Origin: Mycobacteriales bacterium
GTDB lineage: Bacteria; Actinomycetota; Actinomycetes; Mycobacteriales; QHCA01
Reading direction: 5' to 3'
Length of the DNA: 64,000 nucleotides
Assembly (NCBI GenBank): GCA_038237645.1
Contig: JBBRYN010000001.1
Span: 40,101 to 104,100, forward strand
Shown here: one piece after another, positions 32,923 through 50,150 of the stretch
How the letters are laid out: each line of letters starts with the position of its first letter
How positions within the stretch are numbered: the stretch's first letter is position 1
Translations under genes and position numbers: made by a program
Notes under the pieces: generated by a model
The model's database searches: none
Told to the model about the DNA's origin: nothing
Seen by the model: the letters and a program-made list of their open reading frames with translations, nothing else

Positions 32923-33261
32923 GTGACGGACAACCAGAACGAGTGGCTGCCGCTGCCGGTCGTCGCGGAGCGCCTCGGCATCGAAGTGAACAGGGTCCAC
33001 CAACTGCTGCGCGACGGCTGGCTGCTCGCCCATCGGGTCGACGGGGTGCTGCGGATCCCGGCCGACTTCATCAGGGGCGGGGCAGTGGTCAAGGGCCTGC
33101 CGGGCACCATCACCGTGCTGCGTGACGCCGGCTACGACGACGAGGACGCCCTGAGCTGGCTGCTTCGCGCCGATGACTCGCTGCCCGGCACGCCGGCGCA
33201 GGCGCTGGCGGAGAATCGCGGCACCGAGGTCAAGCGGCGGGCGCAGGCGGCAGCGTTCTAG
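32923..33261 (+). CDS. Rv2175c-like DNA-binding protein (winged-helix, kinase substrate family)
   Basis: WLPLPVVAERLGIEVNRVHQLLRDGWLLAHRV resembles the Mtb Rv2175c HTH region from recall. Adjacent to the PASTA kinase, as in Mtb. GTG 32923. Confidence 0.7.
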   Translation: MTDNQNEWLPLPVVAERLGIEVNRVHQLLRDGWLLAHRVDGVLRIPADFIRGGAVVKGLPGTITVLRDAGYDDEDALSWLLRADDSLPGTPAQALAENRGTEVKRRAQAAAF

Positions 33262-33263
33262 CC

Positions 33264-33593
33264 GTGCCGGCTCGGTCGGTCTACCTGTTGGTCCTGCTCG
33301 GCTGCATCGTGGTCACGCTCCCGCTCGAGGTCTTTCTCGGCGTGCGCGTCTACCGGCGCTGGCGCCGGCTGCTGCTCGCCGTGCTGCCCACCGTCGCGGT
33401 GTTCCTGGCCTGGGACATCACAGCGGTCGCCGTCGGGCACTGGCACTACGACCGTGACCAGCTGACCGGCCTGACCTTGCCCGGTCGGCTTCCGGTGGAG
33501 GAGTTGCTGTTTTTCGTCGTCGTGCCGACCTGCGCGATTCTCGGCTTCGAGGCGGTCCGCGCCGTCCGCCGGTGGCCGGCCGGAGACGAGTGA
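33264..33593 (+). CDS. crtYc: Lycopene cyclase domain protein, subunit 1 (heterodimeric lycopene beta-cyclase CrtYc-like)
   Basis: ~109-aa, 3-TM protein of the lycopene cyclase domain family. Sits in the carotenoid locus. Confidence 0.8.
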   Translation: MPARSVYLLVLLGCIVVTLPLEVFLGVRVYRRWRRLLLAVLPTVAVFLAWDITAVAVGHWHYDRDQLTGLTLPGRLPVEELLFFVVVPTCAILGFEAVRAVRRWPAGDE

Positions 33594-33919
33594 GCTACAC
33601 CACCGCCGCGGTGCTCGGGGTCCTCGGCGCGGCGGCCGTCGACCTCGTGATGCTGCGGACCAGGCTGCTGACCCGCAGGCTGTTCTGGACCGCGTACGCG
33701 ATCATCGTGTCCTGCCAACTGCCGGTGAACGGCATCCTCACCGGCCGAGGGATCGTGCGCTACGACCGGCACGCGATCCTCGGCCTGCGGATCGCCAACG
33801 CCCCGGTGGAGGATTTGCTGTTCGGCTTCGCGATGGTGCTGCTGACCCTGTCGACCTGGGTGTGGCTGGGCCGACGCGGGATCAGTGCGACCCCTGCCGG
33901 ACCGCGAACGCCGAGATGA
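33590..33919 (+). CDS. crtYd: Lycopene cyclase domain protein, subunit 2 (CrtYd-like)
   Basis: Second ~110-aa membrane subunit. GTGA overlap with subunit 1 stop. 3' end overlaps convergent crtB by ~37 nt. Confidence 0.75.
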   Translation: MSYTTAAVLGVLGAAAVDLVMLRTRLLTRRLFWTAYAIIVSCQLPVNGILTGRGIVRYDRHAILGLRIANAPVEDLLFGFAMVLLTLSTWVWLGRRGISATPAGPRTPR

Positions 33920-34796
33920 GGCGGGGGAGCACCACCTGCGCGCGCTGCCGGCGCCCAACCGAGACCCGGCGGTCCAGCACCTGGTAACCGCAGTCCTCGA
34001 CCCGGTCGAGGATGCTGCCATAGAGGGCGAACGCGGTCGCGATGCAGTCGCGGGAGGCAGGATGCAGCAGCCGGATTCCCGGCTGGGCGCTGCGGTAGAT
34101 CTCGCGGGCGCGGGCGATCTGATGGGCCAGCAGCCGGCGGACCCGCCCGTCGACCACGCCGCGGGCGAGATGCTGCCGGTCGACGCCGAAGAGCCGGAGG
34201 TCTTCCGTCGGCAGGTAGACCCGACCCCGGCGCAGATCCTCGCCGACGTCGCGGATGAAGTTGGTCAACTGGAAGGCGATCCCCAGGTCGGCGGCGTAGG
34301 GCTCGACGACCGAGCGCGGCAGGCCCGGGTGCTCCAACACCGGCAGCATCTGCAGGCCGATGACGGCGGCCGAGCCGTATACGTAGGTCATCAGGTCCGG
34401 GAACGTGTCGTAGTCGCTGACGGTCAGGTCGAGCCGCATCGAGGTGAGGAACGCCTCGAAGTACGGCAGCGGGATGTCCCACCGGCCGATCGTGTCGAAG
34501 ACCGCGGGCAGGACGCCGTCGTCGCCGCGGCCGGACAGGAACCGCTGGCTCCAGCGGCCCAGGTGCTCCGCCTTCTGTTCGTCGGTCAGCGTCGACGCCA
34601 GGTCGTCGACGATCTCGTCGGCGTATCGCGCGAAGCCGTACAGCGCGTGCACGTAGGGACGCTTGTGCGCCGGCAGCAGCAGCGTCGCCAGGTAGTAGGT
34701 CTTGCCGTGCGAGGCGTTGAGTCGCCGGCACGTTTCGTACGACGCCCGCAGGCTGGGCGCGCTGATGCCGGCAGCGTCGAGTTCGCGGCCGCTCAC
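33882..34796 (-). CDS. crtB: Phytoene synthase
   Basis: Squalene/phytoene synthase motifs YCxxVAG-like, DxxxD-containing segments ARYADEIVDD and NFIRDVGEDL. GTG 34796 overlaps the stop of the upstream GT87 gene (GTGA). Confidence 0.9.
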   Translation of the reverse strand: MSGRELDAAGISAPSLRASYETCRRLNASHGKTYYLATLLLPAHKRPYVHALYGFARYADEIVDDLASTLTDEQKAEHLGRWSQRFLSGRGDDGVLPAVFDTIGRWDIPLPYFEAFLTSMRLDLTVSDYDTFPDLMTYVYGSAAVIGLQMLPVLEHPGLPRSVVEPYAADLGIAFQLTNFIRDVGEDLRRGRVYLPTEDLRLFGVDRQHLARGVVDGRVRRLLAHQIARAREIYRSAQPGIRLLHPASRDCIATAFALYGSILDRVEDCGYQVLDRRVSVGRRQRAQVVLPRLISAFAVRQGSH

Positions 34797-36274
34797 CCCG
34801 GGACCTGTGCTGCCGGCCGCTCGCGGCGCAGCCTGCGCACCCCGACGACGGCCAAGTAATAGACGAGGCCGACCAGCACGATCACGTCGACAGCCACGCC
34901 CGCCGGCTGGGTGGCCCGCGCCAGGTTGTAGCCGTCCGGCAGCACCAGGAAGCAGAGGGCAGCACTGGTCGTCACTATCATCGTTCGCGCTCGACCCGTG
35001 ATGCCGGCCGCCGCGAGCACCGCGACTGCCCAGGTCACGTACCACGGGTGCACCGCCGGACCGAGCGCCACGACCGCGAGCAGCGCCCAGCCACAGCCCT
35101 CGACGGCCGGCCGGATCCCACCCAGCCGGGCGGCCCGGATCCACAGCCACCCGCAGATGACGGCCATCACCGCGAATCCGATCCCCCGGGTGACCGCCAG
35201 CGCGGTGGGCGAGCCGCCCAGCAGGAGGCCGAGACCGGTCGGCAGAGACGTCCACTGCTTGCTGATCCCGACGGTGTGGACCGTGCCCACCCAGCCGTAG
35301 CCCAGCCCGCTCACCGCCGTGACGACGACGAAGGTCGCGCCGGCGACGAGAATGGTGGCGGCGACTGCCTGGGCCAAGGGCTGCCGGCGGCCCGGCAGCC
35401 GCTGCATCCACAGCAGCGCGACGAACGGCAGCGCCACCGCCGCGGTGGCCTTGACCGCCACTGCCAGGGCGCAGCGGACAGCGCCGGCCGCCGGTCGCCG
35501 GCCGGCGGCCATGGCGAGGCCCGCCACCATCAGCCCGACCATCAGTGCGTCGGCGTGGGCGCCCCCGACGAAGTGCGTGAGCACGAGTGGGTTGACCAGC
35601 CCCAGCCACAGGGCGTCCCGCTCGTCGGCGCCGCAGGCCCGGGCCGCCCGTGGCAGCGCCCAGGCCAGCAGCACCGTGCCGGCGATGGCGAGCACCCGCA
35701 TCCCGGCCACCGCCAGGGCAAGGGAGTCACCGGAGCCGGCCACGACGAGGCGGGCCAGCCCCAGGAAGAGCGGTCCGTAGGCGAACGGCACGTGCAGCCA
35801 GGAGGTCGACGTCGACGGGACCCAAGGAGAGGCGAGGTCGGCGGCGCCGTGGGAGTAGGGATTGAGCCCGGCCCGCAGCATCTGCCCGGCCACGGCGTAG
35901 CCGTACACGTCACGGCTCAGGACGGGCGGGACGAAGATCAGCGGCAGTGCCCACAGCGCGGCCGTCGTGCACAGCCAGCGGGGGGTCAGCCGGTCGAGCA
36001 GGCGGCGGAGCAGCAGCCAGGCGACCACCAGCAGTGCCATGCCGACGATCGACACGGCGATGCACAGGATCCGGCCCACGCCGCCGCGCAGCGTGGCGAG
36101 GATGACCGTGTCGCGCAGGGGATCCGGTCGCGGGAGGACACCGGCGCCCAGCGCCCCGAGCGCCAGCAGGACGGCGCCTCCGGTCCCCAGCAGCCGTACG
36201 CGGGTCGGGCTGCCCTGAATGCGCACCGGCTCATGCTGCCACGCCGGTCTCCGGCGGGCGGCGATCACACCCAT
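34793..36274 (-). CDS. Polyprenol-phosphate-mannose-dependent alpha-(1-6)-mannosyltransferase-like membrane protein (GT87/DUF2029, MptA/MptB-like)
   Basis: 493 aa with ~12 TM segments. GT-C style loop VYGYAVAGQMLRAGLNPY. Position equivalent to mptA between idsA2 and Rv2175c in Mtb. Confidence 0.75.
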   Translation of the reverse strand: MGVIAARRRPAWQHEPVRIQGSPTRVRLLGTGGAVLLALGALGAGVLPRPDPLRDTVILATLRGGVGRILCIAVSIVGMALLVVAWLLLRRLLDRLTPRWLCTTAALWALPLIFVPPVLSRDVYGYAVAGQMLRAGLNPYSHGAADLASPWVPSTSTSWLHVPFAYGPLFLGLARLVVAGSGDSLALAVAGMRVLAIAGTVLLAWALPRAARACGADERDALWLGLVNPLVLTHFVGGAHADALMVGLMVAGLAMAAGRRPAAGAVRCALAVAVKATAAVALPFVALLWMQRLPGRRQPLAQAVAATILVAGATFVVVTAVSGLGYGWVGTVHTVGISKQWTSLPTGLGLLLGGSPTALAVTRGIGFAVMAVICGWLWIRAARLGGIRPAVEGCGWALLAVVALGPAVHPWYVTWAVAVLAAAGITGRARTMIVTTSAALCFLVLPDGYNLARATQPAGVAVDVIVLVGLVYYLAVVGVRRLRRERPAAQVPG

Positions 36275-36286
36275 GCGGGCCGGCGG

Positions 36287-37798
36287 TCAGCGCCGGGCAC
36301 GAGAACGGTAGGCCGGGTCCGGGCCGGTGATCCGCTCCGCGGCCAGCCGGCCGGAGATCAGCACCATAGGCACGCCGACGCCGGGCTGGGTGCCCGAGCC
36401 GGCGAACACCACGTTGTCCAGCCTGGGTGCCAGGTTGGCCGGCCGGAAGGGGCCGGTCTGCCGGAAGGTGTGGGCGGCGGCGAAGGGCGTGCCCATCGCC
36501 AGCCCGGCGGCCTGCCAGTCGGCCGGCGTCACCGCGTGCTCGACCTCGACGGCGTCGCCGAAGCCGACATATCCTCTGGCCTCCAGGACGGCCACCACCT
36601 CGTCGCGGTACCTCGGCCCGACGGCCTCCCAGTCGATGCCCGCACCGGTGTGGGGTGTCGGCACGAGCACGGAGTAGGTCTGCCTGCCGGCCGGTGCCAG
36701 CGACGGATCGCTGCACGACGGGTTGGTGACCAGCAGCGAGGGATCGCTCATCAACTGCTGACGTCCGATCAGCTCGCCGAAGGCGCCACGCCAGGAGCGT
36801 CCGAAGTGGATGGTGTGGTGGGCGGTCTGCCGATATACCGCCGAGGAGCCGGCGTGCAGCAGGAAACACGACGGCGAGTAGCGCAGCCGCGCGACGCGCC
36901 TCGGCGCGGCCCGCGGTGGCAACAGTGCGCCGTAAGCGACCGGGAGGTCAGCATTGAGCACGACCACGTCGGCCGGTATCCGCTCACCCGTAGCCGTCAG
37001 GACGGCCACCGCCCGGCCGCCGATGACCTCCACCTGGACCACCTCGTTGTCGTAGCGGAAGGTGACACCGTGCTTTTCCGCGGCGCCGGCCAGGGCGAGC
37101 GGCACACTGTGCATGCCACCACGCGGGAAGTAGACGCCGGCCACCGAGTCCATGTAGGCGATGACCGCGTAGCTGGCCAATGCGTCGTACGGCGAGAGCC
37201 CGGCGTACATCGCCTGGAAGGAAAAGACCCGTTGCAGGCGGGGATCGGGCAGGTATGACGCGACCTTCGGCGCCAGCCGCCGGAAGCCACCCAGCATGAG
37301 CAGGTGGAGCAGCCGCCGGCTGACGAGGTCGATCGGGGAATCGAGATTGCGGTCGATGAAATCCTGAAACTGCACCCGGTAGAGCCGGGACACGAAGGCG
37401 ACGAATCGCAGGTAGCCGGCCGCGGCGGCCGGGCCGCAGACCCGTTCGACCTCGGCGGCCATCTCGCCGGGGTCGGCCAGCACGTCGAGCCGCGAGCCGT
37501 CGGGGTAGCAGGCCCGGTAGATCGGGGAGATCGGCTCCAGGTCGAGCCAGTCCGACAGCCGCTCGCCTACGCAGTCCAGCGCGTCGGCGATCAGGTCGGG
37601 CATGGTGAGCACCGTCGGGCCGGTGTCGAAGGTGTATCCACCGACCGTCAGCCGGCCGGCCCGCCCACCAGGCACCGCCGCGCGCTCCAGCACGGTGACG
37701 GCGCGGCCGGCGCCGGCCAGCCGCAGGGCCGCCGACAGCCCGCCCAGCCCGGCGCCGACCACGACGACGTGATCGGTCCGGCCGGCTACCGTCCGCAC
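36287..37798 (-). CDS. crtI: Phytoene desaturase
   Basis: FAD-binding VVVVGAGLGGLSAALRLA. CrtI family length. GTG 37798 lies 10 nt downstream of the crtE stop. Confidence 0.9.
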   Translation of the reverse strand: MRTVAGRTDHVVVVGAGLGGLSAALRLAGAGRAVTVLERAAVPGGRAGRLTVGGYTFDTGPTVLTMPDLIADALDCVGERLSDWLDLEPISPIYRACYPDGSRLDVLADPGEMAAEVERVCGPAAAAGYLRFVAFVSRLYRVQFQDFIDRNLDSPIDLVSRRLLHLLMLGGFRRLAPKVASYLPDPRLQRVFSFQAMYAGLSPYDALASYAVIAYMDSVAGVYFPRGGMHSVPLALAGAAEKHGVTFRYDNEVVQVEVIGGRAVAVLTATGERIPADVVVLNADLPVAYGALLPPRAAPRRVARLRYSPSCFLLHAGSSAVYRQTAHHTIHFGRSWRGAFGELIGRQQLMSDPSLLVTNPSCSDPSLAPAGRQTYSVLVPTPHTGAGIDWEAVGPRYRDEVVAVLEARGYVGFGDAVEVEHAVTPADWQAAGLAMGTPFAAAHTFRQTGPFRPANLAPRLDNVVFAGSGTQPGVGVPMVLISGRLAAERITGPDPAYRSRARR

Positions 37799-37808
37799 GC
37801 GGCAGGCC

Positions 37809-38930
37809 CTAGCCCTGCCGCGCGGTCGCGGCGACGGCGAGGTCGCGCAGCACGCCACGCGCCTCCTCGTCGATGTCGGCCAGTGCCAGCGCGGTCAACG
37901 ACTGCTCGGCCCGTTCGCTGATCAGCCGCTCGCTCTGCGCCAGCGCCCCGGTCTCGGTGATGACCTCGCGCAGCGCGGCGACCCCGCCGGCGGACAGGTG
38001 CGGGTCGCCGAGATGGCCGCGGACGAGTGCCGACTGGCGGGGGTCGGCCCGCTCGAGGGTGAGCGAGATCAGCACGGTGCGCTTGCCCTCGCGCAGGTCG
38101 TCGCCGGCCGGCTTGCCGGTGGCGGACGGGTCGCCGAACACCCCCAGTACGTCGTCGCGAAGCTGGAATGCCTCGCCCAGCGGCAGCCCGTAGGCCGTGT
38201 AGGAGGCGAGGACATGCGGCGGGGCGCCGGCCAACGCGGCCCCGAGGTGCAGCGGCCGCTCGATCGTGTATTTGGCGCTCTTGTACGTTGCCACCCGCAT
38301 CGAGCGTTCCGTGGCGGAGCCACCAATGACATCCGTGGCGGAGCCACCAATGACATCCGTGGATGCCCCCCCCACGGCCTGCTCGAGCACGTCGAGGTAC
38401 TGGCCGGCCATCAACTCCGTCCGCATCACGTCGTAGACCGGTTGCCCGCGCTGCAGGACTTCGGCGGGCAGCCCCGAGGTGTTGTAGGTCTCGTCGGCCC
38501 AGATGAGGCACAGGTCGCCGAGCAGGATGGCCGCGGACTGCCCGAACGCCTCCGGGTCGCCGCGCCAGCTCTCGGTGCGGTGCAGGGAAGCGAAGCGGCG
38601 GTGCACGGCGGGCGCCCCACGCCTGGTCTCCGACCCGTCCATCACGTCGTCGTGGATCAGGGCGCAGGCGTGCAGCAATTCCAGCGCGGCAACCGCCGCG
38701 ACGATCTGGTCGTTGTCGCCGCCGCCTGCCCCGCGCCAGCCCCAGTAGCCGAAGGCCGGCCGCAGGCGCTTGCCGCTGTCGAGCAGAAAGTCCGAGAGCG
38801 CGTCGGCGACCGGGCCCAGGTCCACGCTGATCGCGTCGAGCCGGTGGCGTTGCCGGGTCAGGATGGCGTCGATCGCCTTGGTGACGCGGGCACGGAGGTC
38901 GACTCTGTCGACCGGACTCTCTGCTGTCAC
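37809..38930 (-). CDS. crtE: Geranylgeranyl diphosphate synthase (polyprenyl synthetase)
   Basis: FARM LIHDDVMD and SARM-like FQLRDD. Contains an in-frame 24-bp tandem duplication (GGSATDVI x2). Confidence 0.9.
   Translation of the reverse strand: MTAESPVDRVDLRARVTKAIDAILTRQRHRLDAISVDLGPVADALSDFLLDSGKRLRPAFGYWGWRGAGGGDNDQIVAAVAALELLHACALIHDDVMDGSETRRGAPAVHRRFASLHRTESWRGDPEAFGQSAAILLGDLCLIWADETYNTSGLPAEVLQRGQPVYDVMRTELMAGQYLDVLEQAVGGASTDVIGGSATDVIGGSATERSMRVATYKSAKYTIERPLHLGAALAGAPPHVLASYTAYGLPLGEAFQLRDDVLGVFGDPSATGKPAGDDLREGKRTVLISLTLERADPRQSALVRGHLGDPHLSAGGVAALREVITETGALAQSERLISERAEQSLTALALADIDEEARGVLRDLAVAATARQG
38311..38362 (-). repeat. Perfect 24-bp tandem duplication (gtggcggagccaccaatgacatcc x2, plus partial third copy) inside crtE
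   Basis: Read directly from the sequence. In frame. Encodes a duplicated octapeptide. Confidence 0.95.
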
Positions 38931-38969: not shown

Positions 38970-39920
38970 ATGCCCATCCTCGGCCCGGCACTACGCTTCG
39001 GATCCATGGCACTCGGATCGGCATCGACGCTGCCCAGGACCGCCGCGATCAGCGACCTGCTGGCCGCCGGCGGGCGCTCGGTGTCCTTCGAGTTCTTTCC
39101 CCCCAAGACCGACCAGGGGGAGCGGCAGCTCTGGCAGACGCTGCGCGACCTCGAACGCCTGCAGCCGACCTTCGTCTCCGTGACGTACGGCGCCGGTGGC
39201 GGCACCCGGGACCGTACGGTCGGCATCACCGAGCGCATCGCGACGGACACGACGCTGACCCCGGTGGCGCACCTTACGGCCGTCAACCACTCGGTGGCGG
39301 AGCTCCGCCGGATCATCGGCCTCTACGCGTCCGTGGGCGTGCGCAACGTGCTCGCCCTGCGCGGCGACCCGCCGGGCGACCCGCAGGCCGAGTGGCTGGC
39401 ACACCCGGAGGGGCTCGCCTACGCCGAGGATCTCGTCCGGCTGATCCGCCACTCCGGCGACTTCTGCGTCGGGGTGGCGGCCTTCCCGGAGAAGCACCCG
39501 CGCTCGCCCGACCTCGACTCCGACATCCGCTACTTCGTGCAGAAGTGCCGTGCCGGCGCCGACTACGCGATCACCCAGATGTTCTTCCGGGCCGACGACT
39601 ACCTGCGGCTGCGCGACCGGGTGGCGGCCGCCGGCTGCGACATCGCGATCCTGCCCGGCATCATGCCGGTCACCAACGTGCAGCAGATCGAGCGCTTTGC
39701 CGTCCTCACCGGGGCCGAGTTCCCCGCCGATCTCGCGCAGCGACTGCACGCGGTGGAGGACGACCCGGAGGCGGTGCGGGCGATCGGTGTCGAGGTGGCC
39801 ACCGACCTGTGCCGGACACTGCTGGAGGAGGGCGCGCCGGGCCTGCACTTCATCACCCTCAACCGGTCGACGGCCACTCGCGAGATCTGGGCGCGGCTCG
39901 CACTGTCCGACCGCGACTAG
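38970..39920 (+). CDS. metF: 5,10-methylenetetrahydrofolate reductase
   Basis: SFEFFPPKT...VTYGAGG MTHFR signature. Confidence 0.93.
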
Positions 39921-39924
39921 CGGC

Positions 39925-40593
39925 ATGCGCGTGCTGCCCGACCGGGACGGCTACTTCACGCTGTGGTCCGGGCTGCACGGCGGGTACGACCCCCGCGCGG
40001 CGTTCTGGCCGCGGACCTGGCTGACAGTTTCCTACTACTGTGCCCGGCCGCTGGCCCGGCTCGGTGTCGCGCCCCACGTGTTGACCGCGGCCGGCGGGCT
40101 GACCAGCGGGGCGGTGGCCGGGGTGGCCTGGCTCGGCGGCCGCTGGGCGCTGCTCGCTGTCATTGTCGTGCTTGCCTCGGGGCTGACCGACAGTCTCGAC
40201 GGCGCCGTAGCGGCGCTGACCGGCCGGGCTACGGCGTTCGGCTACGTCCTGGACTCCCTCGTCGACCGGCTCTCCGACGGCTCCTACCTGCTCGCGCTGT
40301 GGCTGGTCGGCGCGCCGGCCTGGCTCTGCGTGCTCGGCGGGGTGGTCACCATGTTGCAGGAGTATCTGCGTGCGCGGGCCGGCAACGCGGGCATGGCCGA
40401 GATCGGCGTCGTGACCGTTGCCGAGCGGCCCACCCGGGTGATCATCACCGCCGTCACCCTGTGCGCGGCCGGGTTGCTCCCGCGCCACGCCGGTGCAGCC
40501 GCTGCTGCCGGTGCGGCCGCCTGGCTGGTCGCCGGCACGATGGGCTTCGGCCAGCTGGCCGTGGCGGTGCGGCGTAGCCTCACCGGCGGGTGA
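39925..40593 (+). CDS. CDP-alcohol phosphatidyltransferase family protein
   Basis: DSLDGAVAALTG...D motif (DG-x2-AR-x8-G-x3-D type). Multiple TM segments. Confidence 0.75.
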   Translation: MRVLPDRDGYFTLWSGLHGGYDPRAAFWPRTWLTVSYYCARPLARLGVAPHVLTAAGGLTSGAVAGVAWLGGRWALLAVIVVLASGLTDSLDGAVAALTGRATAFGYVLDSLVDRLSDGSYLLALWLVGAPAWLCVLGGVVTMLQEYLRARAGNAGMAEIGVVTVAERPTRVIITAVTLCAAGLLPRHAGAAAAAGAAAWLVAGTMGFGQLAVAVRRSLTGG

Positions 40594-41033: not shown

Positions 41034-41205
41034 GGCGATGACGATCCGGTGACGTCCCGTGACCGGTCGAGGGCCGTTCGTGGGCGGCTTGCGGACCCAT
41101 CCGGGACCGGCCCCGGTCCCCAGTAGGACCAATGCTCGAGGCGCTTGCTCTTTGGATCCTGGGAGGTCAGCGTCAGACTGGACGTGTCGAAAGGAGTTGC
41201 GCACC

Positions 41206-42519
41206 ATGGCAGGTCGGGCTGCGACACCTCGCACGGTCCTGGAGCAGATGCTCTGGAAGCAGGACAGGACCTACGAGGAGTTGGCCTGCGACTTCGACGG
41301 GTTGGCACGCCAGATGGGCGAGCGGGCAACGATGAGCGCTCGGCACCTTCGGCGGCTGGCGTCGGGGCAGCGGTCGGGCACGACGCCCGTGACCCGCCGA
41401 GTCCTTCAACAGATGTTCGGCCTGCCCACCGGTGAGCTTCTTCAGTCGTTAGCCGATGGGCACGGCACTGTCACCTCAACGCCGGCCGAGGGGATCCTGG
41501 CCGACCCGAGCGAGCGAGAGTTGGTTGCCATGGCGGCGCAGCGCGCCCGCAAATTCACCCTGTCCACCAAGGCGACCGCGAGTGCTGAGTCCGTGGAGCA
41601 GGTCTATGACGATGTTCGGCGGCTGGCTGTCGCCTACCCTCGACACCCGCTGTCGGAAGTCCTCGCCACTCTCGTCCAGGTGCAGGACAGCACGTATGAA
41701 CTGCTCGAACATCGGCAACGGCCGCAGCAGGCGCGCGATCTGTACCTTCTTGCCGGGGTGGTGGGAGGCATGCTCGCCAAGGCCTCCCACGACCTGGCCG
41801 ATCCATATGCCGCTATGACCCAGGCCCGCGCAGCATTCCTGTGTGCGGACAACGCTGATCATGATGGTCTCCGCGCATGGTTGCGAGGCCTCCAGGCTCT
41901 CATCGCTTACTGGGCCGGTCGTCCAGCCGAGTCGGTCCGGTATGCCCAGTCGGGCGCCGAATACGTGGCCGAAGGGTATGGATCGGCCGGGGTGTGGTTG
42001 TCCTTGAGCCAAGCCCGTGGACTCGCCTCGCTCGGCGACCGGGAGGGCACCATGCATGCGATCCGTCAGGCGGAGGACGGCTGGGAAATGTTCCAGCCAG
42101 ATCAACTTGATGAGTTCGGTGGTATCTGCACATTCACTCGGTCGCGTCAGATCTACTACGCCGCGGACGCGCTCAGCTGGCTTCCCGATGAAGCCGTCCG
42201 TGCGGAGAACTACTCGGTCGAGGCCGTGCAGGCGTACAGCGACACTGACTCATCCGAGTGGGCGTTTGGCGATCAAGCCGGCTCGCACACGAACCTGGCC
42301 ATCGCCCAGATTGCTCGCGGGGAGCTGGACGGTGCCTATGAAGCCCTCGACCCGGTGCTTGGTCTCCCGCCGGGGCGACGGATCAATGGGATCATCCACT
42401 CCCTGCGGCGGGTGAACGACGCGCTGCGGCGATCGACGTCCGACGCGGACCGGGTTGTTGAGTTGCAGGAGGGAATCGAGGCATTCACTCGCACCCCGGT
42501 CGCGGCTCACCTGCGGTGA
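41206..42519 (+). CDS. XRE-family HTH regulator with C-terminal TPR-like domain
   Basis: AAGGAG SD 9 nt upstream of ATG 41206. N-terminal HTH-like region. ~300-aa helical-repeat C-terminus. Divergent from the 40653..41033 gene. Confidence 0.65.
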   Translation: MAGRAATPRTVLEQMLWKQDRTYEELACDFDGLARQMGERATMSARHLRRLASGQRSGTTPVTRRVLQQMFGLPTGELLQSLADGHGTVTSTPAEGILADPSERELVAMAAQRARKFTLSTKATASAESVEQVYDDVRRLAVAYPRHPLSEVLATLVQVQDSTYELLEHRQRPQQARDLYLLAGVVGGMLAKASHDLADPYAAMTQARAAFLCADNADHDGLRAWLRGLQALIAYWAGRPAESVRYAQSGAEYVAEGYGSAGVWLSLSQARGLASLGDREGTMHAIRQAEDGWEMFQPDQLDEFGGICTFTRSRQIYYAADALSWLPDEAVRAENYSVEAVQAYSDTDSSEWAFGDQAGSHTNLAIAQIARGELDGAYEALDPVLGLPPGRRINGIIHSLRRVNDALRRSTSDADRVVELQEGIEAFTRTPVAAHLR

Positions 42520-43139
42520 GCAGATGGGTTCGCACCCCGGTTCAAGTCCCCGGCCACCACGTCGTCCTGCGCGACTTCCGGCCCGACGATGTGGACGCTG
42601 CCCTTGCCGTGGTGGGCGACGACCGGGTAACACGATCGCTGTCCTTCGACAGCCGTGATCGAGATCAGGCAGCGGCCATGATCACCGGCGTGATTGACCG
42701 CGCGAGCCGGGACCCTCGTATCGAGTACTACCTGGCAATCACGCTCACTCAGACGGACGAGGCCATCGGTTTCGCCCGGCTGGGCCTCGACGGAGTTCAA
42801 GCGGCAAAGCTCGGCTACGCGATAGCCGCTGATCTCTGGGGCCGTGGGTACGCCACCGATGCCGCACGCACTATCGTCAGCTTCGGATTCCACGACCTCG
42901 GCCTGCATCGGATCAGCGCCGCAATCGGCCCCGACAACGCGCACTCGATCGCCTTGATTGAGCGGCTCGGTTTTGCGTACGAGGGCCGCATCCGGCACCA
43001 CGTCTTGACCAATGGAGTGTGGCGCGACAGCTTGCTGTACTCCGTTCTCGCCGAAGAGTGGGTCGTCGCCCAGTCGGGTCCGGCCGCCCCGGCCGGACCG
43101 GTGCTCAGCGCAGTGCCTCCGGCTGCCTCTGAGGGGTGA
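42516..43139 (+). CDS. GNAT family N-acetyltransferase (RimJ/RimL-like)
   Basis: Acetyl-CoA motif DLWGRGYATDAARTIVSFGF. 207 aa. Confidence 0.85.
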   Translation: MSRWVRTPVQVPGHHVVLRDFRPDDVDAALAVVGDDRVTRSLSFDSRDRDQAAAMITGVIDRASRDPRIEYYLAITLTQTDEAIGFARLGLDGVQAAKLGYAIAADLWGRGYATDAARTIVSFGFHDLGLHRISAAIGPDNAHSIALIERLGFAYEGRIRHHVLTNGVWRDSLLYSVLAEEWVVAQSGPAAPAGPVLSAVPPAASEG

Positions 43140-44925: not shown

Positions 44926-46437
44926 TCACGCGGGGCCGATCAGGCCCGCGGTGATCTGCGCCGAGAGCAGCACCAGCGGCAGCCCGCCGCCGGGATGCGC
45001 CGAGCCGCCGACCAGGAACAGCCCCGGCAGCGGGGCGCGGTTGGCCGGCCGCAGGAAGGCGGCCCGCGGGCCGTTGGACGACGTCCCGTAGATCGCCCCG
45101 CCCACCGACCGGGTCTCGCGCTGCAGGTCGGCGGGAGTGCGGACCTCGGTGAACATCAGCCGGTCGCGCACGTCGTGACCGCGGTCGGCCAGCACCTCCA
45201 ACAGCCGCGCGGCGTAGGACTCCGCCCGGCCCGGCGCCGTCCAGTCGATCGCGCCGACGATCCCGTGAGCCCCCGAGTCGGTGCCGGCGTAGTGCCGTGC
45301 TGCATTGACCAGCACGAACCATGCCTCGTGCCCGTCCGGCGCAGCGGCCGGATCGTCCGGCACGCTGACGTACAGGGTCGGGTCGTCCACCGGTCGCGCA
45401 GCTGCGCCGAAAACGGCGTCGAACTCGGCGTCGTAGTCGACCGGAAAGAAGACGTTGTGGTGCGCCAGCCCGCGCGTACGTCCCCGTACCCCCAACAGCA
45501 GGACGAACGCCGACAGCGAGGGAGTGGCCCGGCGCAGCCGTCGCGCTGCACGGGGCAGGTCCACCAGGCTGCCGTAGACATGTGCCGCGTCGACGTCTGT
45601 GACGACGACGTCGGCCGGCAGCCGGCCGCCGCCGGCGAGCACCACGGCACTGGGCCGCCCGGCGGCGTGCTCGATAGCGGTGACATCTGCCGACGTGCGC
45701 AGCGTCGCCCCCGCCTCGATGCAGCGGGCCTGCAGCGCGCCGACGATCCGGCGCAGGCCGCCGCGGACATACCAGCCGCCGAAGGCCAGCTCGGCATAAG
45801 GGACGGCGGCCAGTGCCGCCGGCGCGCGCCGCGGGTCGGAACCGGTGTAGGTGGCGTAGCGCTCCAACAGCATCCGCAGCCGCGGATCGCGCAGGTGGGA
45901 CCGCCCGAGACTGCGCAGCGTCCGCCATGGCGCGATCGCCAGCAGGTCGCGCACGTGCCGGCTCTGGCGGAGCAGCGCCGGCAGGCCGGCCACCGGTGCG
46001 GACAGGAACGGCCCCGACGCCGCGGCCCAGATCCGCTCAGCCCGGCGCCAGAGCCGGTCCCAGTCCGCGCCGGCCGAGCCGCCGAGGGTGGCCTCGATCC
46101 GTTGGCAGAACATCTCGTGGTCGGAGCAGGAGTCCAGCATCGTGCCGTCAGCGAAGCGATATCTGGCCACCGGATCCAGCGGTACGAGGTCGAGCACCGA
46201 CTCCAGCGGGTCACCAGTGACATTGAACAGGTCGCCCAGCACCTGCGGGAGGGTCAGCAGCGACGGGCCGGTGTCGAAGCGGAACTGCCCGGCCGGCGTC
46301 CCGGTGACGAACTCGCCGAGCTTTCCGCCGAGCGCCGTCGACTGCTCGCACACGGTCACGGTATGGCCCAGCGCCGCCAGCCGAGCCGCCGCCGCCAGGC
46401 CGCCCACGCCGCCACCCACGACGACGATCCGGCTCAT
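44926..46437 (-). CDS. crtD: Carotenoid desaturase of the CrtI/CrtD family (putative 3,4-desaturase)
   Basis: FAD motif IVVVGGGVGGLAAAARLA. Phytoene-desaturase-family length. In an operon with carotenoid-tailoring genes. Confidence 0.8.
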   Translation of the reverse strand: MSRIVVVGGGVGGLAAAARLAALGHTVTVCEQSTALGGKLGEFVTGTPAGQFRFDTGPSLLTLPQVLGDLFNVTGDPLESVLDLVPLDPVARYRFADGTMLDSCSDHEMFCQRIEATLGGSAGADWDRLWRRAERIWAAASGPFLSAPVAGLPALLRQSRHVRDLLAIAPWRTLRSLGRSHLRDPRLRMLLERYATYTGSDPRRAPAALAAVPYAELAFGGWYVRGGLRRIVGALQARCIEAGATLRTSADVTAIEHAAGRPSAVVLAGGGRLPADVVVTDVDAAHVYGSLVDLPRAARRLRRATPSLSAFVLLLGVRGRTRGLAHHNVFFPVDYDAEFDAVFGAAARPVDDPTLYVSVPDDPAAAPDGHEAWFVLVNAARHYAGTDSGAHGIVGAIDWTAPGRAESYAARLLEVLADRGHDVRDRLMFTEVRTPADLQRETRSVGGAIYGTSSNGPRAAFLRPANRAPLPGLFLVGGSAHPGGGLPLVLLSAQITAGLIGPA

Positions 46438-47474
46438 GGCACGGGCCGTCCCTTCCAGACCAGCTCACCCCGTCGCCGGGCCAGGACCGACCGCGCGGTC
46501 AGCCAGCCGAACAACAACACCGACACCGGATGGGCGCAGGCGTCGGGCCACACCCGTCCGCCGGTGCGCCGGGCGGTGATAGCTCGGCCAGCCACACCGG
46601 CGAGGTAACCGACCAGGCCGGCCCGCGACCCGCGCAGGGCGGCCAGCGGCGGCAGCACGTACACCGCGGTGAGAGCCGCGGCGACCGTGACCGCGCCGCC
46701 GCGCGAACCGAATGCCGCCCACAGCGACTTGGCGTAGCCGGCCGACAGATCGGCCCAGTTCTCATACATCGTGCAGCTCGCCAGCCACGTGCCGTCGACG
46801 ACACCGCCCACGCCACCGGTGGCCTTGACCGCCCGGAGCAGCGCCACGTCCTCGACCACCGCCGCCCGGACGGCGGCATGGCCGCCGGCCCGGTCGTAGG
46901 CCGTCCGCCGGACGGCGAGGAACTGGCCGTTGGCCGCGGCCAACGACGGTCGCGGCGACCGCTCGGCCAGCCGGAGCGGGAGGAAGGACAGCCACGACCA
47001 TTGCAGCAGCGGCTGCACCAGTAGCGGGGCCGGCCCGGAGGCGACCTGCCGGGGGTACGGGGAGATCAGATCGAGGCCGGTGCGCTGCAGCAGGTCGACG
47101 GCGGCCGAGACCGCGTGCGGTGAGAGCACCACGTCGGCATCGACGAACACCAGGACGGCGGCGGCCGGATCCGCGGCATCGGCAAGCTGCTGGCAGGCGT
47201 GCGGCTTGCCCAGCCAGCCGACCGGCGGCTCCCGCCCGGTGAGCAGTCTGGCGTCGCGGGTGATCGATCCGCGGGTCAGGGCGCCGCGGATCGCATCCGT
47301 GGTCCCGTCGGTGGAGCCGTCGTCGAGCACGACGATCTCCATCCGGTCGCCGGCCGTCTGCTGCAGCAGGGCGGCCAGGCACGGGCCCACCCGGTGCGCC
47401 TCGTCACGTACCGGCAACAGCACCGAGACCTTGACCCCGGGCGGCGGTGGCCGTGCCGACGGGCGGCGGAGCAA
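46434..47474 (-). CDS. Family 2 glycosyltransferase (carotenoid glycosyltransferase CruC/CrtX-like)
   Basis: VSVLLPVRDE and VVLDDGSTDGT GT-A motifs. ATGA overlap with crtD start. TTG/GTG start estimated. The long N-terminal extension in the ORF track overlaps the next gene and is an artefact. Confidence 0.75.
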   Translation of the reverse strand: MLRRPSARPPPPGVKVSVLLPVRDEAHRVGPCLAALLQQTAGDRMEIVVLDDGSTDGTTDAIRGALTRGSITRDARLLTGREPPVGWLGKPHACQQLADAADPAAAVLVFVDADVVLSPHAVSAAVDLLQRTGLDLISPYPRQVASGPAPLLVQPLLQWSWLSFLPLRLAERSPRPSLAAANGQFLAVRRTAYDRAGGHAAVRAAVVEDVALLRAVKATGGVGGVVDGTWLASCTMYENWADLSAGYAKSLWAAFGSRGGAVTVAAALTAVYVLPPLAALRGSRAGLVGYLAGVAGRAITARRTGGRVWPDACAHPVSVLLFGWLTARSVLARRRGELVWKGRPVP

Positions 47475-47539
47475 GGCGGCGTTGACCGCGGCATGCGCGG
47501 CGGCGCCTGCCGCAACGACGGCACACCACCGGACCGGCC

Positions 47540-48292
47540 TCACCGGCGCTGCCCGGCGATCAACGTCACGGCCAGCGGGACGGCGACCACCCCCATCGCC
47601 GCGGCACCCCACACCGCCGAGCCCGGCAGCCCGAAGAAGCACGCGTGCCCGGCGACCGAGGACGCGTAGGTCCACAGGTACAGCGTGATCGGCACCGCGT
47701 CCGACGGCGAACGTCGAGCGGGCAGCAGGAGTACGAGGAGTAGGCCCATCGTGCCGGCGACGGCCAGCCAGCCGGCGTAGTTGGACACCGGCACATGCGG
47801 CACGCCGGGCAGCGCGGGCTGCGGGTCCACCCATCGCCAGTGGCCCGCACCGACCATCTGCGGGTCGAGAAACAGGTCCCAGGTGGCCAGTGCCAGGCCG
47901 GACAGCAGCCCGTGCGCGAGCCGGCGCGAGGTCAGCCGGCCGGCCACCACGTACGCCGGGTAGGCCATCATCGTCCAGGCCAGCGGGACCACCAGCGGCA
48001 CGCCGGCGACCCCGGCTCCCAGGCCGCCGGTGTAGGAGTAGCGCCCGAACGGGATCCCGGTGGCCACCCCGATCGCCTCGGCAAGCAGTCCTCCGGCGGC
48101 GGTGACTGCGACGAAGACGGCCGTCCAGCGGGCTCCCCGCGTCGCCGCGGCATGGGTAACTGAGGCAAGAAAGAAGCAGCAGACCGTGGTGACCGTCAAC
48201 GGGGAGCGCAGCGGCTCCCTGACGAGCGGGTAGGCGATCTCGGTGAGCACGGTGAGCGCCGCCGAGCCGGCGGCGGCCCGGCGACCCACCAC
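47540..48292 (-). CDS. cruF: Carotenoid biosynthesis membrane protein (DUF422, CruF-like C-1',2' hydratase)
   Basis: Multi-TM protein with W/H-rich loops (HWRWVDP, SNYAGW), as in CruF-type hydratases from recall. Start approximate (GTG 48292 or 48289). Confidence 0.55.
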   Translation of the reverse strand: MVGRRAAAGSAALTVLTEIAYPLVREPLRSPLTVTTVCCFFLASVTHAAATRGARWTAVFVAVTAAGGLLAEAIGVATGIPFGRYSYTGGLGAGVAGVPLVVPLAWTMMAYPAYVVAGRLTSRRLAHGLLSGLALATWDLFLDPQMVGAGHWRWVDPQPALPGVPHVPVSNYAGWLAVAGTMGLLLVLLLPARRSPSDAVPITLYLWTYASSVAGHACFFGLPGSAVWGAAAMGVVAVPLAVTLIAGQRR

Positions 48293-49605: not shown

Positions 49606-50067
49606 TCAGATCACCTCGATCGACCTGCCGCCGGTGGGCCGCAGCAATTCGTCGTAGCTGGTGTCGAAGACGGCGTCGGGTGTGCCGGCGCCGCACCACA
49701 CGACCGGATAATTGGCAAGGGTGACGTCGACCGCGGTCCGCAGCGGATGCGGATGGCCGACCGGCGCCACGCCGCCGATCGGCTGGCCGGTCGCCTCGCG
49801 CACGTATTCCGCGTCGGCCTGCTCGAGCGGGGGCAGGTCGAGCAGCACCGAGACCTTGGCGGTATCCACCCGGTGGGCTCCGCTGGCCAGGACCAGGATC
49901 GGCTCGGTCGACCGGAAGATCAGGCTGTTGGCGATGGCGCCGATCTCGACGCCGAGCGCGTCGGCGGCCAGTGCCGCGGTCAGCGCCGCGATCGGCAGTT
50001 CACGTACGGCACCGGTGGCTCCCAGCGCTCGTAGCGCCGCCGCCACTCCCTCGGCATTGGGGTGCAT
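49606..50067 (-). CDS. YbaK/ProX-like aminoacyl-tRNA editing domain protein
   Basis: 153 aa. SLIFRS...GGVAPVGHP pattern of the YbaK deacylase family. Confidence 0.75.
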   Translation of the reverse strand: MHPNAEGVAAALRALGATGAVRELPIAALTAALAADALGVEIGAIANSLIFRSTEPILVLASGAHRVDTAKVSVLLDLPPLEQADAEYVREATGQPIGGVAPVGHPHPLRTAVDVTLANYPVVWCGAGTPDAVFDTSYDELLRPTGGRSIEVI

Positions 50068-50150
50068 GTCAACAGTTGAGCAGAACTACTCAGCTCCGTC
50101 GAGCAGCAGTCCGCAGGACCGGCCGCCGGGCGGCCGCAAGGGTTGTAGCC

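What the first reader, a model, noticed from the sequence alone, without database searches (positions are those of the whole stretch)
33264..38930. Mosaic carotenoid operon: crtE - crtI - MptA-like GT87 mannosyltransferase - crtB, with crtB start overlapping the GT87 stop
A polytopic GT87/DUF2029 protein of the lipomannan alpha-1,6-mannosyltransferase type is embedded between phytoene desaturase and phytoene synthase and is coupled to crtB by a GTGA overlap. In M. tuberculosis the same position (idsA2-mptA-Rv2175c) has no crt genes. So either the carotenoid genes were inserted around an ancestral cell-envelope gene, or this GT has been recruited to carotenoid glycosylation. Either way, cell-wall mannan and pigment synthesis appear to be co-transcribed.
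Basis: partly seen in the sequence, partly recalled or inferred. Interest (0 to 1): 0.6.

Follow-up and report, generated by a model that had tools for sequence, protein, structure and literature searches.

The report
Mannosyltransferase gene nested in carotenoid operon
A membrane mannosyltransferase gene of the MptA/MptB cell-envelope family really does sit between the pigment genes crtI and crtB, but this is an old, widespread actinobacterial gene order and the enzyme most likely works on the envelope, not on the pigment.

Summary
On the minus strand the order is crtE/idsA (37809-38930), crtI (36287-37798), an MptA/MptB-family GT-C glycosyltransferase (34793-36274) and crtB (33882-34796). 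The junctions are 10 nt, 12 nt and a GTGA overlap. Rv2175c-like, crtYc and crtYd converge on crtB from the plus strand.

It is not a local mosaic. The same order recurs in about 40 independent loci from uncultured Actinomycetes and in cultured Cryptosporangium phraense. Composition is uniform across the genes. Divergence of the GT tracks that of crtI, crtB, crtE and the housekeeping gene metF.

Three versions of the same chromosomal slot exist:
- crtE-crtI-GT-crtB, as in this window.
- crtE-crtI-crtB without the GT (37 of 57 informative crtB loci).
- idsA-GT-Rv2175c without crt genes, as in M. tuberculosis.

So neither partner needs the other. The window also holds a canonical carotenoid hydratase/glycosyltransferase/desaturase module, cruF-GT2-crtD (44926-48292), which makes a carotenoid role for the GT-C enzyme unnecessary.

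The best reading is a polyprenol-phosphate-mannose-dependent envelope mannosyltransferase, co-transcribed and translationally coupled with crtB through inherited synteny. The association was apparently already noticed: NCBIfam TIGR03459 keeps the short name 'crt_membr'. It has never been explained. Interest is modest.

The parts
37809..38930 (-). crtE / IdsA-type (Rv2173-like) short-chain prenyl diphosphate synthase, first gene of the operon. It carries an in-frame 24-nt tandem duplication at 38308-38362.
   Evidence: PF00348, 152.9 bits. The best NCBIfam hit is GFPPS_Mycobact at 344.5 bits, below its cut-off of 600; CrtE scores 68.5. GC3 is 0.91. Tandem repeat.
36287..37798 (-). crtI, phytoene desaturase. 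The GTG start lies 10 nt after the crtE stop.
   Evidence: TIGR02734, 510.9 bits against a cut-off of 238. PF01593. Junction read.
34793..36274 (-). MptA/MptB-family GT-C polytopic glycosyltransferase, a predicted polyprenol-phosphate-mannose-dependent mannosyltransferase.
   Evidence: TIGR03459 at 240.7 bits (cut-off 439) and NF038066 at 198.5 bits (cut-off 40). PF26314 MptA_B_family, precomputed. AF2 model with pLDDT 85 matches PimE, ALG3, GPI-MT-I, ArnT and AftA. D122 and 37 other positions are at least 95% conserved over 89 homologues.
34793..34796 (-). GTGA overlap: the GT stop TGA and the crtB start GTG, a translational coupling site.
   Evidence: Sequence read. The same 4-nt overlap occurs in L005, L025, L033, L039, L062 and L081-L083, in L084, L087, L090-L092, L111, L135, L143, L151 and L161, and in L164 and L166.
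33882..34796 (-). crtB, phytoene synthase, last gene of the operon.
   Evidence: PF00494, 232.4 bits. Phytoene synthase models score up to 208 bits, below their equivalog cut-offs.
33590..33919 (+). crtYd, one half of the heterodimeric lycopene cyclase. Its start overlaps the crtYc stop as GTGA. Its 3' end overlaps the crtB 3' end by 38 nt, convergently.
   Evidence: PF18916 at 47.5 bits and TIGR03462 at 63.9 bits. Sequence read.
33264..33593 (+). crtYc, the other half of the lycopene cyclase. It starts 2 nt after the stop of the Rv2175c-like gene.
   Evidence: PF18916 at 38 bits and TIGR03462 at 74.4 bits. Sequence read.
32923..33261 (+). Rv2175c-like winged-helix DNA-binding protein, probably the first gene of an Rv2175c-crtYc-crtYd transcript.
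   Evidence: PF18367 and PF21531. Start chosen from GC3 and homologue length. The tight junction with crtYc is conserved in relatives.
38970..39920 (+). metF (methylenetetrahydrofolate reductase), divergent from crtE. It marks the conserved Rv2172c-like flank.
   Evidence: PF02219 at 357 bits and TIGR00676 at 346 bits, above cut-off.
47540..48292 (-). cruF-like carotenoid 1,2-hydratase, first gene of a second carotenoid module.
   Evidence: PF04240 at 110 bits. TIGR03460 at 126 bits, below its cut-off of 155. Boundaries set.
46434..47543 (-). Family-2 glycosyltransferase (CruG-like), the likely carotenoid glycosyltransferase. It has 4-nt overlaps with cruF and crtD.
   Evidence: PF00535. CruG scores 106 bits and HpnB 118 bits, both below cut-off. 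Boundaries set.
44926..46437 (-). crtD-like carotenoid 3,4-desaturase.
   Evidence: TIGR02734 at 327.6 bits, above cut-off. CrtD equivalog at 340.7 bits, below its cut-off of 580.

Best explanation
The window holds one variant of an ancient, vertically inherited actinobacterial gene block:
- metF, divergent from the operon.
- crtE(idsA)-crtI-GT-crtB on one strand.
- Rv2175c-crtYc-crtYd converging on crtB from the other strand.
- A PASTA kinase and a DAHP synthase beyond that.

The four minus-strand genes are transcribed as one unit from upstream of crtE (inferred from junctions of 10, 12 and -4 nt). crtB translation is coupled to termination of the GT reading frame through the GTGA overlap (inferred from sequence).

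CrtE, CrtB, CrtI and CrtYc/Yd make lycopene and then a cyclised carotene. The separate cruF-GT2-crtD module hydrates, glycosylates and desaturates it (inferred from family membership).

The embedded GT is a GT-C enzyme of the MptA/MptB family. It most likely uses polyprenol-phosphate-mannose on the outer face of the membrane to extend a mannan on a phosphatidylinositol-anchored lipoglycan, as MptA does in Corynebacterium and Mycobacterium (inferred by homology and by chromosomal position).

Its linkage to the crt genes reflects inherited synteny, and possibly a shared dependence on the upstream IdsA-type prenyl diphosphate synthase. It does not reflect a catalytic role in pigment synthesis.
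For: Gene identities and junctions.

GT-C fold and conserved loop aspartate:
- The AF2 model has pLDDT 85.
- The best PDB matches are PimE, ALG3, GPI mannosyltransferase I and ArnT.
- D122 lies in the loop between the helices at residues 98-113 and 168-181 and is conserved. This matches the conserved acidic loop described for MptA (PMC2157549).

Same chromosomal slot as mptA:
- The flanks are an IdsA-type synthase, an Rv2175c-like gene, metF, a kinase and a DAHP synthase.
- Mishra et al. describe the conserved polyprenyl synthase upstream of mptA.

Recurrence: 20 GT proteins from 18 of the 83 GT-derived loci, 20 of 57 CrtB-derived loci, plus L164-L166, which include Cryptosporangium phraense.

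Co-inheritance: Mantel r between GT divergence and neighbour divergence is 0.58-0.83 with p=0.001, including metF. GC3 is uniform at 0.89-0.93.

Each partner can be absent:
- 37 of 57 crtB loci have crtI abutting crtB with no GT.
- acI CrtE, CrtB and CrtI alone make lycopene in E. coli (10.1101/367102).
- L013, L045, L070 and L077 have crtE/idsA plus the GT but no crtB or cyclase gene.
- GT+ and GT- loci interleave in the CrtB tree. crt-linked and crt-free GTs interleave in the GT tree.

A dedicated carotenoid glycosylation module is present in the window and in Cryptosporangium.

No alignment column distinguishes crt-linked GTs from unlinked ones.
Against: - No experiment bears on this protein or on any crt-embedded homologue.
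- It scores below the MptA equivalog cut-off (240.7 against 439), and scores for related GTs do not cleanly separate MptA from MptB. Substrate and linkage specificity are therefore extrapolated.
- I could not place it in a tree with the characterised Rv2174, NCgl2093, Rv1459c or NCgl1505 sequences.
- The 4-nt GT/crtB overlap persists across lineages whose GTs are only 35-45% identical. It persists even where crtI has been separated from the GT (L081, L164). That is more conservation than pure inertia might predict, and it hints at selection for co-expression.
- Whether this organism makes lipomannan at all cannot be seen from a 64-kb window.
Confidence: 0.6

Rival explanations
1. The GT-C enzyme takes part in carotenoid metabolism. 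For example, it could mannosylate a hydroxylated carotenoid or carotenoid glycoside on the outer leaflet using polyprenol-phosphate-mannose, or it could act as a membrane scaffold for CrtB and CrtI.
For: - The position between crtI and crtB is deeply conserved, and the 4-nt coupling to crtB is seen in more than 20 loci.
- The TIGRFAMs curators gave the family the short name 'crt_membr'.
- The GT is kept in some low-GC freshwater lineages (L118, L123, L127, L133).
Against: - 37 of 57 crtB loci lack the GT.
- acI crtE, crtB and crtI suffice for lycopene.
- The products of the core genes have no hydroxyl acceptor.
- A canonical cruF-GT2-crtD glycosylation module is present.
- The family keeps the same slot in loci with no crtB or cyclase gene, and there it is an experimentally shown lipomannan enzyme (PMC2157549).
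- There are no group-specific residues.
- From my own knowledge, all known carotenoid glycosyltransferases are cytoplasmic GT1 or GT2 enzymes.
Confidence: 0.1
2. The GT is a polyprenol-phosphate-sugar-dependent transferase for some envelope glycoconjugate other than lipomannan. It is kept next to the IdsA-type synthase because that enzyme supplies the precursor of its polyprenyl-phosphate carrier. The crt genes share the locus because they draw on the same GGPP pool.
For: - Mishra et al. proposed a functional link and a shared transcript between the upstream polyprenyl synthase and mptA.
- The protein is equidistant from the MptA and MptB models.
- Tandem GT duplicates occur in the slot (L002, L005, L087, L090, L108).
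- A PIP-synthase-like gene lies beside metF.
Against: - There is no direct evidence for a different acceptor.
- The best HMM matches cover the full length of the two alpha-1,6-mannosyltransferase models.
- The metabolic-precursor argument is inference only.
Confidence: 0.2
3. The arrangement is a recent mosaic: carotenoid genes were inserted by horizontal transfer around a resident mptA gene in this lineage.
For: - M. tuberculosis and Corynebacterium have idsA-mptA without crt genes (and gene numbering).
- Barnase/barstar genes have moved in and out of the locus.
Against: - The same interleaved order is found across many divergent lineages.
- Divergence of the GT correlates with that of crtI, crtB, crtE and metF.
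- GC and GC3 are uniform across all genes.
- No repeats or mobile-element genes flank the crt genes in the window.
Confidence: 0.05

Closest known systems
MptA (Rv2174 / NCgl2093), the alpha(1->6)-mannopyranosyltransferase of lipomannan/LAM synthesis in Corynebacterineae
   Same: - Full-length HMM similarity: TIGR03459, positions 3-450 of 470.
- A GT-C polytopic fold without a C-terminal periplasmic domain.
- A conserved acidic loop after the third helix (PMC2157549).
- The same chromosomal slot, downstream of an IdsA-type prenyl synthase and next to an Rv2175c-like gene and metF.
   Different: - It scores well below the equivalog cut-off (240.7 against 439.4).
- crtI lies between the synthase and the GT, and crtB is coupled to the GT's stop codon.
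- Activity is untested.
- The host is an uncultured actinomycete that is not known to make LM or LAM.
MptB (Rv1459c / NCgl1505), the proximal alpha(1->6)-mannosyltransferase; NCBIfam NF038066
   Same: It passes the very permissive NF038066 cut-off (198.5 against 40). Homologues are therefore named 'MptB' in GenBank. It belongs to the same Pfam family, PF26314.
   Different: A clear MptB-type protein from Pseudonocardia (L018) scores 396 bits and lies in an unrelated neighbourhood. The window protein is no closer to MptB than to MptA.
PimE (PDB 9dm5 / 9dm7), the polyprenol-phosphate-mannose-dependent GT-C mannosyltransferase of PIM synthesis
   Same: It is the best solved bacterial structural match (TM-score normalised to the target 0.60-0.63, probability 1.0). 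It has the same fold class and the same presumed donor.
   Different: Sequence identity is only 18-19%. It belongs to a different family (alpha-1,2 linkage). A profile search of PDB sequences does not find it.
acI Actinobacteria crtE-crtI-crtB 'lycopene operon' with convergent crtYc/crtYd (Dwulit-Smith et al., 10.1101/367102)
   Same: - The gene order crtE, crtI, crtB is the same.
- crtB and crtYd are also 3'-adjacent on opposite strands.
- An upstream cruF-cruG-crtD module is also present.
- This locus is evidently homologous to the window's.
   Different: The acI operon as described has no GT between crtI and crtB. The low-GC loci recovered here confirm crtI abutting crtB.
CruG / CrtX carotenoid glycosyltransferases (GT2 / GT1)
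   Same: These are the enzymes that actually glycosylate carotenoids. A CruG-like GT2 is encoded in the window at 46434-47543.
   Different: The embedded GT-C protein shares neither fold nor donor type with them.

Membership tests
MptA/MptB family of GT-C mannosyltransferases (PF26314) | Full-length match to the family profile | tested here: met
   PF26314 is precomputed for the identical protein P0001 and is named MptA_B_family. TIGR03459 gives E=3e-71 and NF038066 gives E=2e-58, both over nearly the whole length.
MptA/MptB family of GT-C mannosyltransferases (PF26314) | GT-C fold: polytopic membrane protein with a catalytic acidic residue in an early extracytoplasmic loop | tested here: met
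   The AF2 model has pLDDT 85 and pTM 0.85 and is almost entirely helical. Foldseek hits are PimE, ALG3, PIG-M-type GPI-MT-I, ArnT, AftA and Emb. D122 in the S120-x-D122 loop motif (SRDVYGY) is at least 95% conserved in 89 homologues. The membrane side of the loop was not computed.
MptA/MptB family of GT-C mannosyltransferases (PF26314) | Polyprenol-phosphate-mannose-dependent alpha(1->6) mannosyl transfer to PIM/LM | not testable with these tools
   This needs biochemistry or genetics. It has been shown only for the Corynebacterium and Mycobacterium enzymes (PMC2157549, PMC2440535).
MptA equivalog (TIGR03459) | Score at or above the curated equivalog cut-off | tested here: not met
   The score is 240.7 bits against a cut-off of 439.4. 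None of ten related GTs reached the cut-off either.
MptA equivalog (TIGR03459) | Conserved chromosomal position downstream of a polyprenyl synthase (Rv2173-like) and beside Rv2175c | tested here: met
   The IdsA-type synthase, the Rv2175c-like gene, metF, the PASTA kinase and the DAHP synthase all flank the gene. crtI and crtB are interposed. The synteny statement for mptA is in PMC2157549.
MptA equivalog (TIGR03459) | Phylogenetic grouping with characterised MptA rather than MptB | not tested
   The reference sequences (Rv2174, NCgl2093, Rv1459c, NCgl1505) could not be retrieved with the tools. Only HMM scores are available, and they are ambiguous.
   The local Pfam scan gives no family even at E=10. 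The precomputed annotation lists PF09594 for some homologues but not for this protein.
Carotenoid biosynthesis operon (crtE, crtI, crtB, crtYc/Yd) | Presence of prenyl synthase, phytoene synthase, phytoene desaturase and lycopene cyclase genes in one neighbourhood | tested here: met
   PF00348, PF00494, TIGR02734 (above cut-off), and PF18916 with TIGR03462 twice, both above cut-off.
Carotenoid glycosyltransferases (CruG/CrtX type) | GT2 or GT1 nucleotide-sugar-dependent fold | tested here: not met
   The embedded GT has a GT-C fold. A separate GT2 with CruG similarity lies at 46434-47543.

The most novel reading that the evidence does not exclude
The crt-embedded clade of MptA/MptB-family GT-C enzymes has a carotenoid-linked function. 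For instance, it could mannosylate a carotenoid glycoside or a carotenoid-binding lipid on the outer leaflet from polyprenol-phosphate-mannose, or it could physically organise CrtB and CrtI at the membrane. That would explain why its stop codon has stayed fused to the crtB start across very divergent Actinomycetes.
Probability: 0.08. Interest if true: 0.75.

Novelty: new member of a known kind. Interest (0 to 1): 0.3.

Why it matters
The result clarifies an annotation problem. Hundreds of actinobacterial proteins are auto-named 'MptB' only because that model's cut-off is 40 bits. An older family name ('crt_membr') implies a pigment role that the comparative data do not support.

The result also shows that the M. 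tuberculosis idsA2-mptA-Rv2175c neighbourhood shares its slot and flanking genes with a larger block that still carries a carotenoid pathway in many other Actinomycetes. On the parsimony argument made here, the M. tuberculosis arrangement is the trimmed remnant of that block.

If the conserved GT-to-crtB coupling turns out to be selected, it would point to co-regulation of envelope lipoglycan and membrane pigment. That link has not been studied. Cultured Cryptosporangium species offer a way to test it.

Tried and rejected
- **Wrong-frame artefact.** My first crtI query started one base off (37797). The wrong-frame translation still matched homologues and produced apparent crtI-GT fusion ORFs of about 1030 aa in L004, L005 and L048. 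After correcting the start to 37798 no fusion remains. The fusion idea is rejected.
- **Local Pfam.** It gave no hit for the GT even at E=10. I relied on NCBIfam and on the precomputed PF26314 hit.
- **Sioxanthin paper.** Richter et al. 2015 (PMC4755588) is not held, so I could not check whether Salinispora terp2 contains this GT. Micromonospora and Actinoplanes GT loci show no crt neighbours.
- **Window protein look-up.** The exact window protein is not on record for the contig look-up.
- **Second protein search.** A search with the Frankiales GT returned only environmental sequences and no characterised MptA.
- **AFDB50 fold search.** This library is unavailable, so no structural or sequence anchor to UniProt MptA or MptB was obtained.
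- **Signal scans.** The sigma-70 scan found no promoter-like site. The three terminator-like hits all lie inside coding sequence. The scan suits high-GC actinobacteria poorly. No inverted repeat was found in the crtE-metF intergenic region.
- **Literature.** Searches for mannosyltransferase together with phytoene genes, and for TIGR03459, found nothing. The 'carotene biosynthesis associated membrane protein' hit in PMC6016940 refers to a different InterPro entry.


Full report
**What is in the window**

The window has about 71% G+C, and real genes stand out by third-position GC of 0.86-0.93. On the minus strand there are four genes:
- An IdsA/CrtE-type prenyl diphosphate synthase at 37809-38930. 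It matches PF00348. Its best NCBIfam match is the mycobacterial GFPPS model, which I believe (from memory) represents Rv2173/IdsA2, at 344 bits and below cut-off.
- crtI at 36287-37798 (TIGR02734, 511 bits).
- A 493-aa polytopic protein at 34793-36274.
- crtB at 33882-34796 (PF00494).

The junctions are 10 nt, 12 nt and a 4-nt GTGA overlap between the GT stop and the crtB start.

The lower part of the reported interval lies on the other strand. An Rv2175c-like winged-helix gene (32923-33261) is followed after 2 nt by crtYc (33264-33593). crtYd follows (33590-33919) with another GTGA overlap. The 3' end of crtYd overlaps the 3' end of crtB by 38 nt. metF diverges from crtE.

No promoter-like site was found, and the only terminator-like hits lie inside coding sequence. 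Co-transcription of crtE-crtI-GT-crtB is the straightforward inference.

**What the embedded protein is**

The local Pfam copy finds nothing. NCBIfam aligns the protein end to end with the MptA model TIGR03459 (240.7 bits, cut-off 439.4) and the MptB model NF038066 (198.5 bits, cut-off 40). The identical database protein carries PF26314, named MptA_B_family.

An AlphaFold model (pLDDT 85, pTM 0.85) matches polyprenyl- or dolichyl-phosphate-sugar-dependent GT-C enzymes. These are PimE, ALG3, GPI mannosyltransferase I, ArnT, AftA and Emb.

Thirty-eight positions are at least 95% conserved over 89 homologues. One is D122, in the loop after the third helix. This matches the conserved acidic loop described for MptA (PMC2157549).

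The protein is therefore a member of the MptA/MptB GT-C family. It is not an MptA equivalog by NCBI's threshold. The GenBank name 'MptB' given to its relatives follows only from that model's very low cut-off. A clear MptB-type protein from Pseudonocardia scores 396 bits.

**How widespread the arrangement is**

A scan of one genome per species with a GT alignment returned 80 loci. After I corrected a frame error of my own (see below), tblastn with the window proteins showed crtI directly upstream of the GT in at least 12 loci. These were labelled Actinomycetes, Nanopelagicales, Frankiales and Mycobacteriales. Most of them (10 of the 12) also had crtB downstream and the cyclase genes convergent on it; the other two contigs end at or just inside crtB.

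The closest relatives follow the same pattern:
- L081 and L082 (79% GT identity) and L083 (61%) keep the GT-crtB 4-nt overlap.
- L164 and L166 also keep it.
- In cultured Cryptosporangium phraense (L165) the order is cruF-GT2-crtD, then metF, then crtE-x-crtI-GT-crtB, converging on crtYd-crtYc-Rv2175c, then a kinase and a DAHP synthase.

I then searched from the other direction. A metagenome scan with a CrtB alignment gave 57 loci with enough upstream sequence. Twenty of them have the GT upstream of crtB, 12 of those overlapping or within 20 nt. Thirty-seven have no GT upstream of crtB, in most of them with crtI directly abutting crtB. A profile search confirmed the absence.

The GT-free form includes the low-GC freshwater lineages. 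It matches the published acI 'crtEIB operon', whose three enzymes alone make lycopene in E. coli (10.1101/367102).

Conversely, L013, L045, L070 and L077 carry metF, idsA and the GT (with Rv2175c in L070 and L077) but no crtB or cyclase gene. This is the M. tuberculosis and C. glutamicum arrangement (PMC2157549).

**History of the block**

- Pairwise divergence of the GT correlates with that of crtI (r=0.83), metF (0.76), crtE (0.72) and crtB (0.58). All have Mantel p=0.001.
- GC and GC3 are uniform across all the genes.
- In a neighbour-joining GT tree, crt-linked and crt-free syntenic copies interleave. Copies from Streptomyces, Micromonosporaceae, Pseudonocardiaceae and Acidimicrobiales, which have none of these neighbours, form their own clades.
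- In a CrtB tree, GT+ and GT- loci interleave in several places.

The parsimonious reading is an old interleaved block that has repeatedly lost either the GT or the crt genes. A recent insertion does not fit.

Neither junction of the GT is inviolable. A barstar gene on the opposite strand, with or without a barnase-like ribonuclease gene, separates crtI from the GT in L081 and L164. The same kind of insert separates the GT from crtB in L004, L006, L047 and L068.

**Does the GT act on carotenoids?**

Several points argue against this:
- The pathway runs without it in many relatives.
- The family keeps the same slot where no crtB or cyclase gene is present, and there it is a proven lipomannan enzyme.
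- No alignment column distinguishes linked from unlinked copies.
- The hydrocarbon products of CrtB, CrtI and CrtYcd offer no acceptor hydroxyl.
- The window has its own canonical modification module about 6 kb away. It consists of cruF-like (47540-48292), a CruG-like GT2 (46434-47543) and crtD-like (44926-46437), all joined by 4-nt overlaps. The same module occurs in Cryptosporangium.

One observation keeps a functional link alive. The GT-crtB overlap persists across lineages whose GTs share only 35-45% identity. I rate a direct carotenoid role at about 8-10%.

A softer link through the shared IdsA-type synthase is plausible but untested. Mishra et al. had already suggested a functional link and a common transcript for the synthase and mptA.

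**Comparison with what is known**

The association has been seen before. NCBIfam still carries the TIGRFAMs short names 'crt_membr' for TIGR03459 and 'crt_membr_arch' for the CruF model TIGR03460. From memory, TIGR03459 was originally described as a carotene-biosynthesis-associated membrane protein.

Apart from that, mptA appears in the legend of a gene map of carotenogenic loci (PMC5401885). I found no paper that discusses or explains the linkage. The window adds another, uncultured, member to a known arrangement.

**What led nowhere**

My first crtI query was one base out of frame. It produced spurious crtI-GT 'fusion' ORFs, which I corrected. I could not retrieve the characterised MptA and MptB sequences, the sioxanthin paper or the AFDB library. 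As a result, orthology to MptA rests on chromosomal position and on HMM scores only.

**Verdict**

This is an ordinary, though unexplained, conserved actinobacterial neighbourhood. The embedded enzyme is best read as an envelope mannosyltransferase. Interest is 0.3.

Noticed in passing
window 44926-48292 (minus strand): A second carotenoid sub-cluster: cruF-like hydratase, CruG-like GT2 glycosyltransferase and crtD-like desaturase, all joined by 4-nt overlaps. It predicts a hydroxylated, glycosylated monocyclic carotenoid. An Acyl_transf_3 gene at 49971-51509 (+) could acylate the sugar. The same module sits next to metF/crtE in Cryptosporangium phraense (L165).
   Followed up: partly
window 38308-38362 (inside crtE): A perfect 24-nt tandem repeat of 2.3 copies, in frame, duplicates the peptide TDVIGGSA. 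The window CrtE is 373 aa, against 350-360 aa in relatives. It looks like a recent slippage insertion in a loop.
   Followed up: no
window 32923-33919 (plus strand): The Rv2175c-like DNA-binding gene is only 2 nt upstream of crtYc, and crtYc overlaps crtYd by 4 nt. A conserved housekeeping regulator therefore appears to be co-transcribed with the lycopene cyclase. The tight junction recurs in L048, L081, L083, L126, L130, L139, L140, L152 and L164-L166.
   Followed up: partly
window 33882-33919: The coding 3' ends of crtB (minus strand) and crtYd (plus strand) overlap convergently by 38 nt. Comparable overlaps of 37-86 nt occur in many relatives, which raises the possibility of antisense or transcriptional interference between the two operons.
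   Followed up: no
L081 6678-7106; L164 6953-7803; L004 11575-12063; L006 11458-11991; L068 11461-11970; L047 8938-9453: Barstar genes, with or without barnase-like ribonuclease genes, lie on the opposite strand next to the GT in relatives. In some they are upstream of the GT and in others downstream. The window itself lacks them.
   Followed up: partly
L002, L005, L087, L090, L108 (between crtI and crtB): Two tandem MptA/MptB-family GT genes occupy the slot. In the two pairs placed in the GT tree (L002, L005), the upstream copy groups with a different clade from the crtB-adjacent copy. Micromonospora loci also carry tandem pairs, but without crt neighbours.
   Followed up: no
window ~39963-40593 (plus strand, downstream of metF): A CDP-alcohol phosphatidyltransferase weakly similar to phosphatidylinositol-phosphate synthases, below cut-offs. 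It is also present beside metF in L081 and L164. This is a possible hint of PI-anchored glycolipid metabolism at the same locus.
   Followed up: no
database annotation of homologues: Relatives are named 'MptB' in GenBank because NF038066 has a cut-off of only 40 bits. The window protein scores 198 bits, against 396 for a clear MptB-type protein, and it scores higher on the MptA model. This is probably systematic over-annotation.
   Followed up: partly
window 41059-42519 (+), 43136-44836 (+) and 52499-56422 (+): Other genes lie around the two carotenoid modules: an NsdA-family TPR regulator, a family-A DNA-polymerase-domain protein of 566 aa, and a DnaE-type or error-prone polymerase. I did not examine them further.
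   Followed up: no
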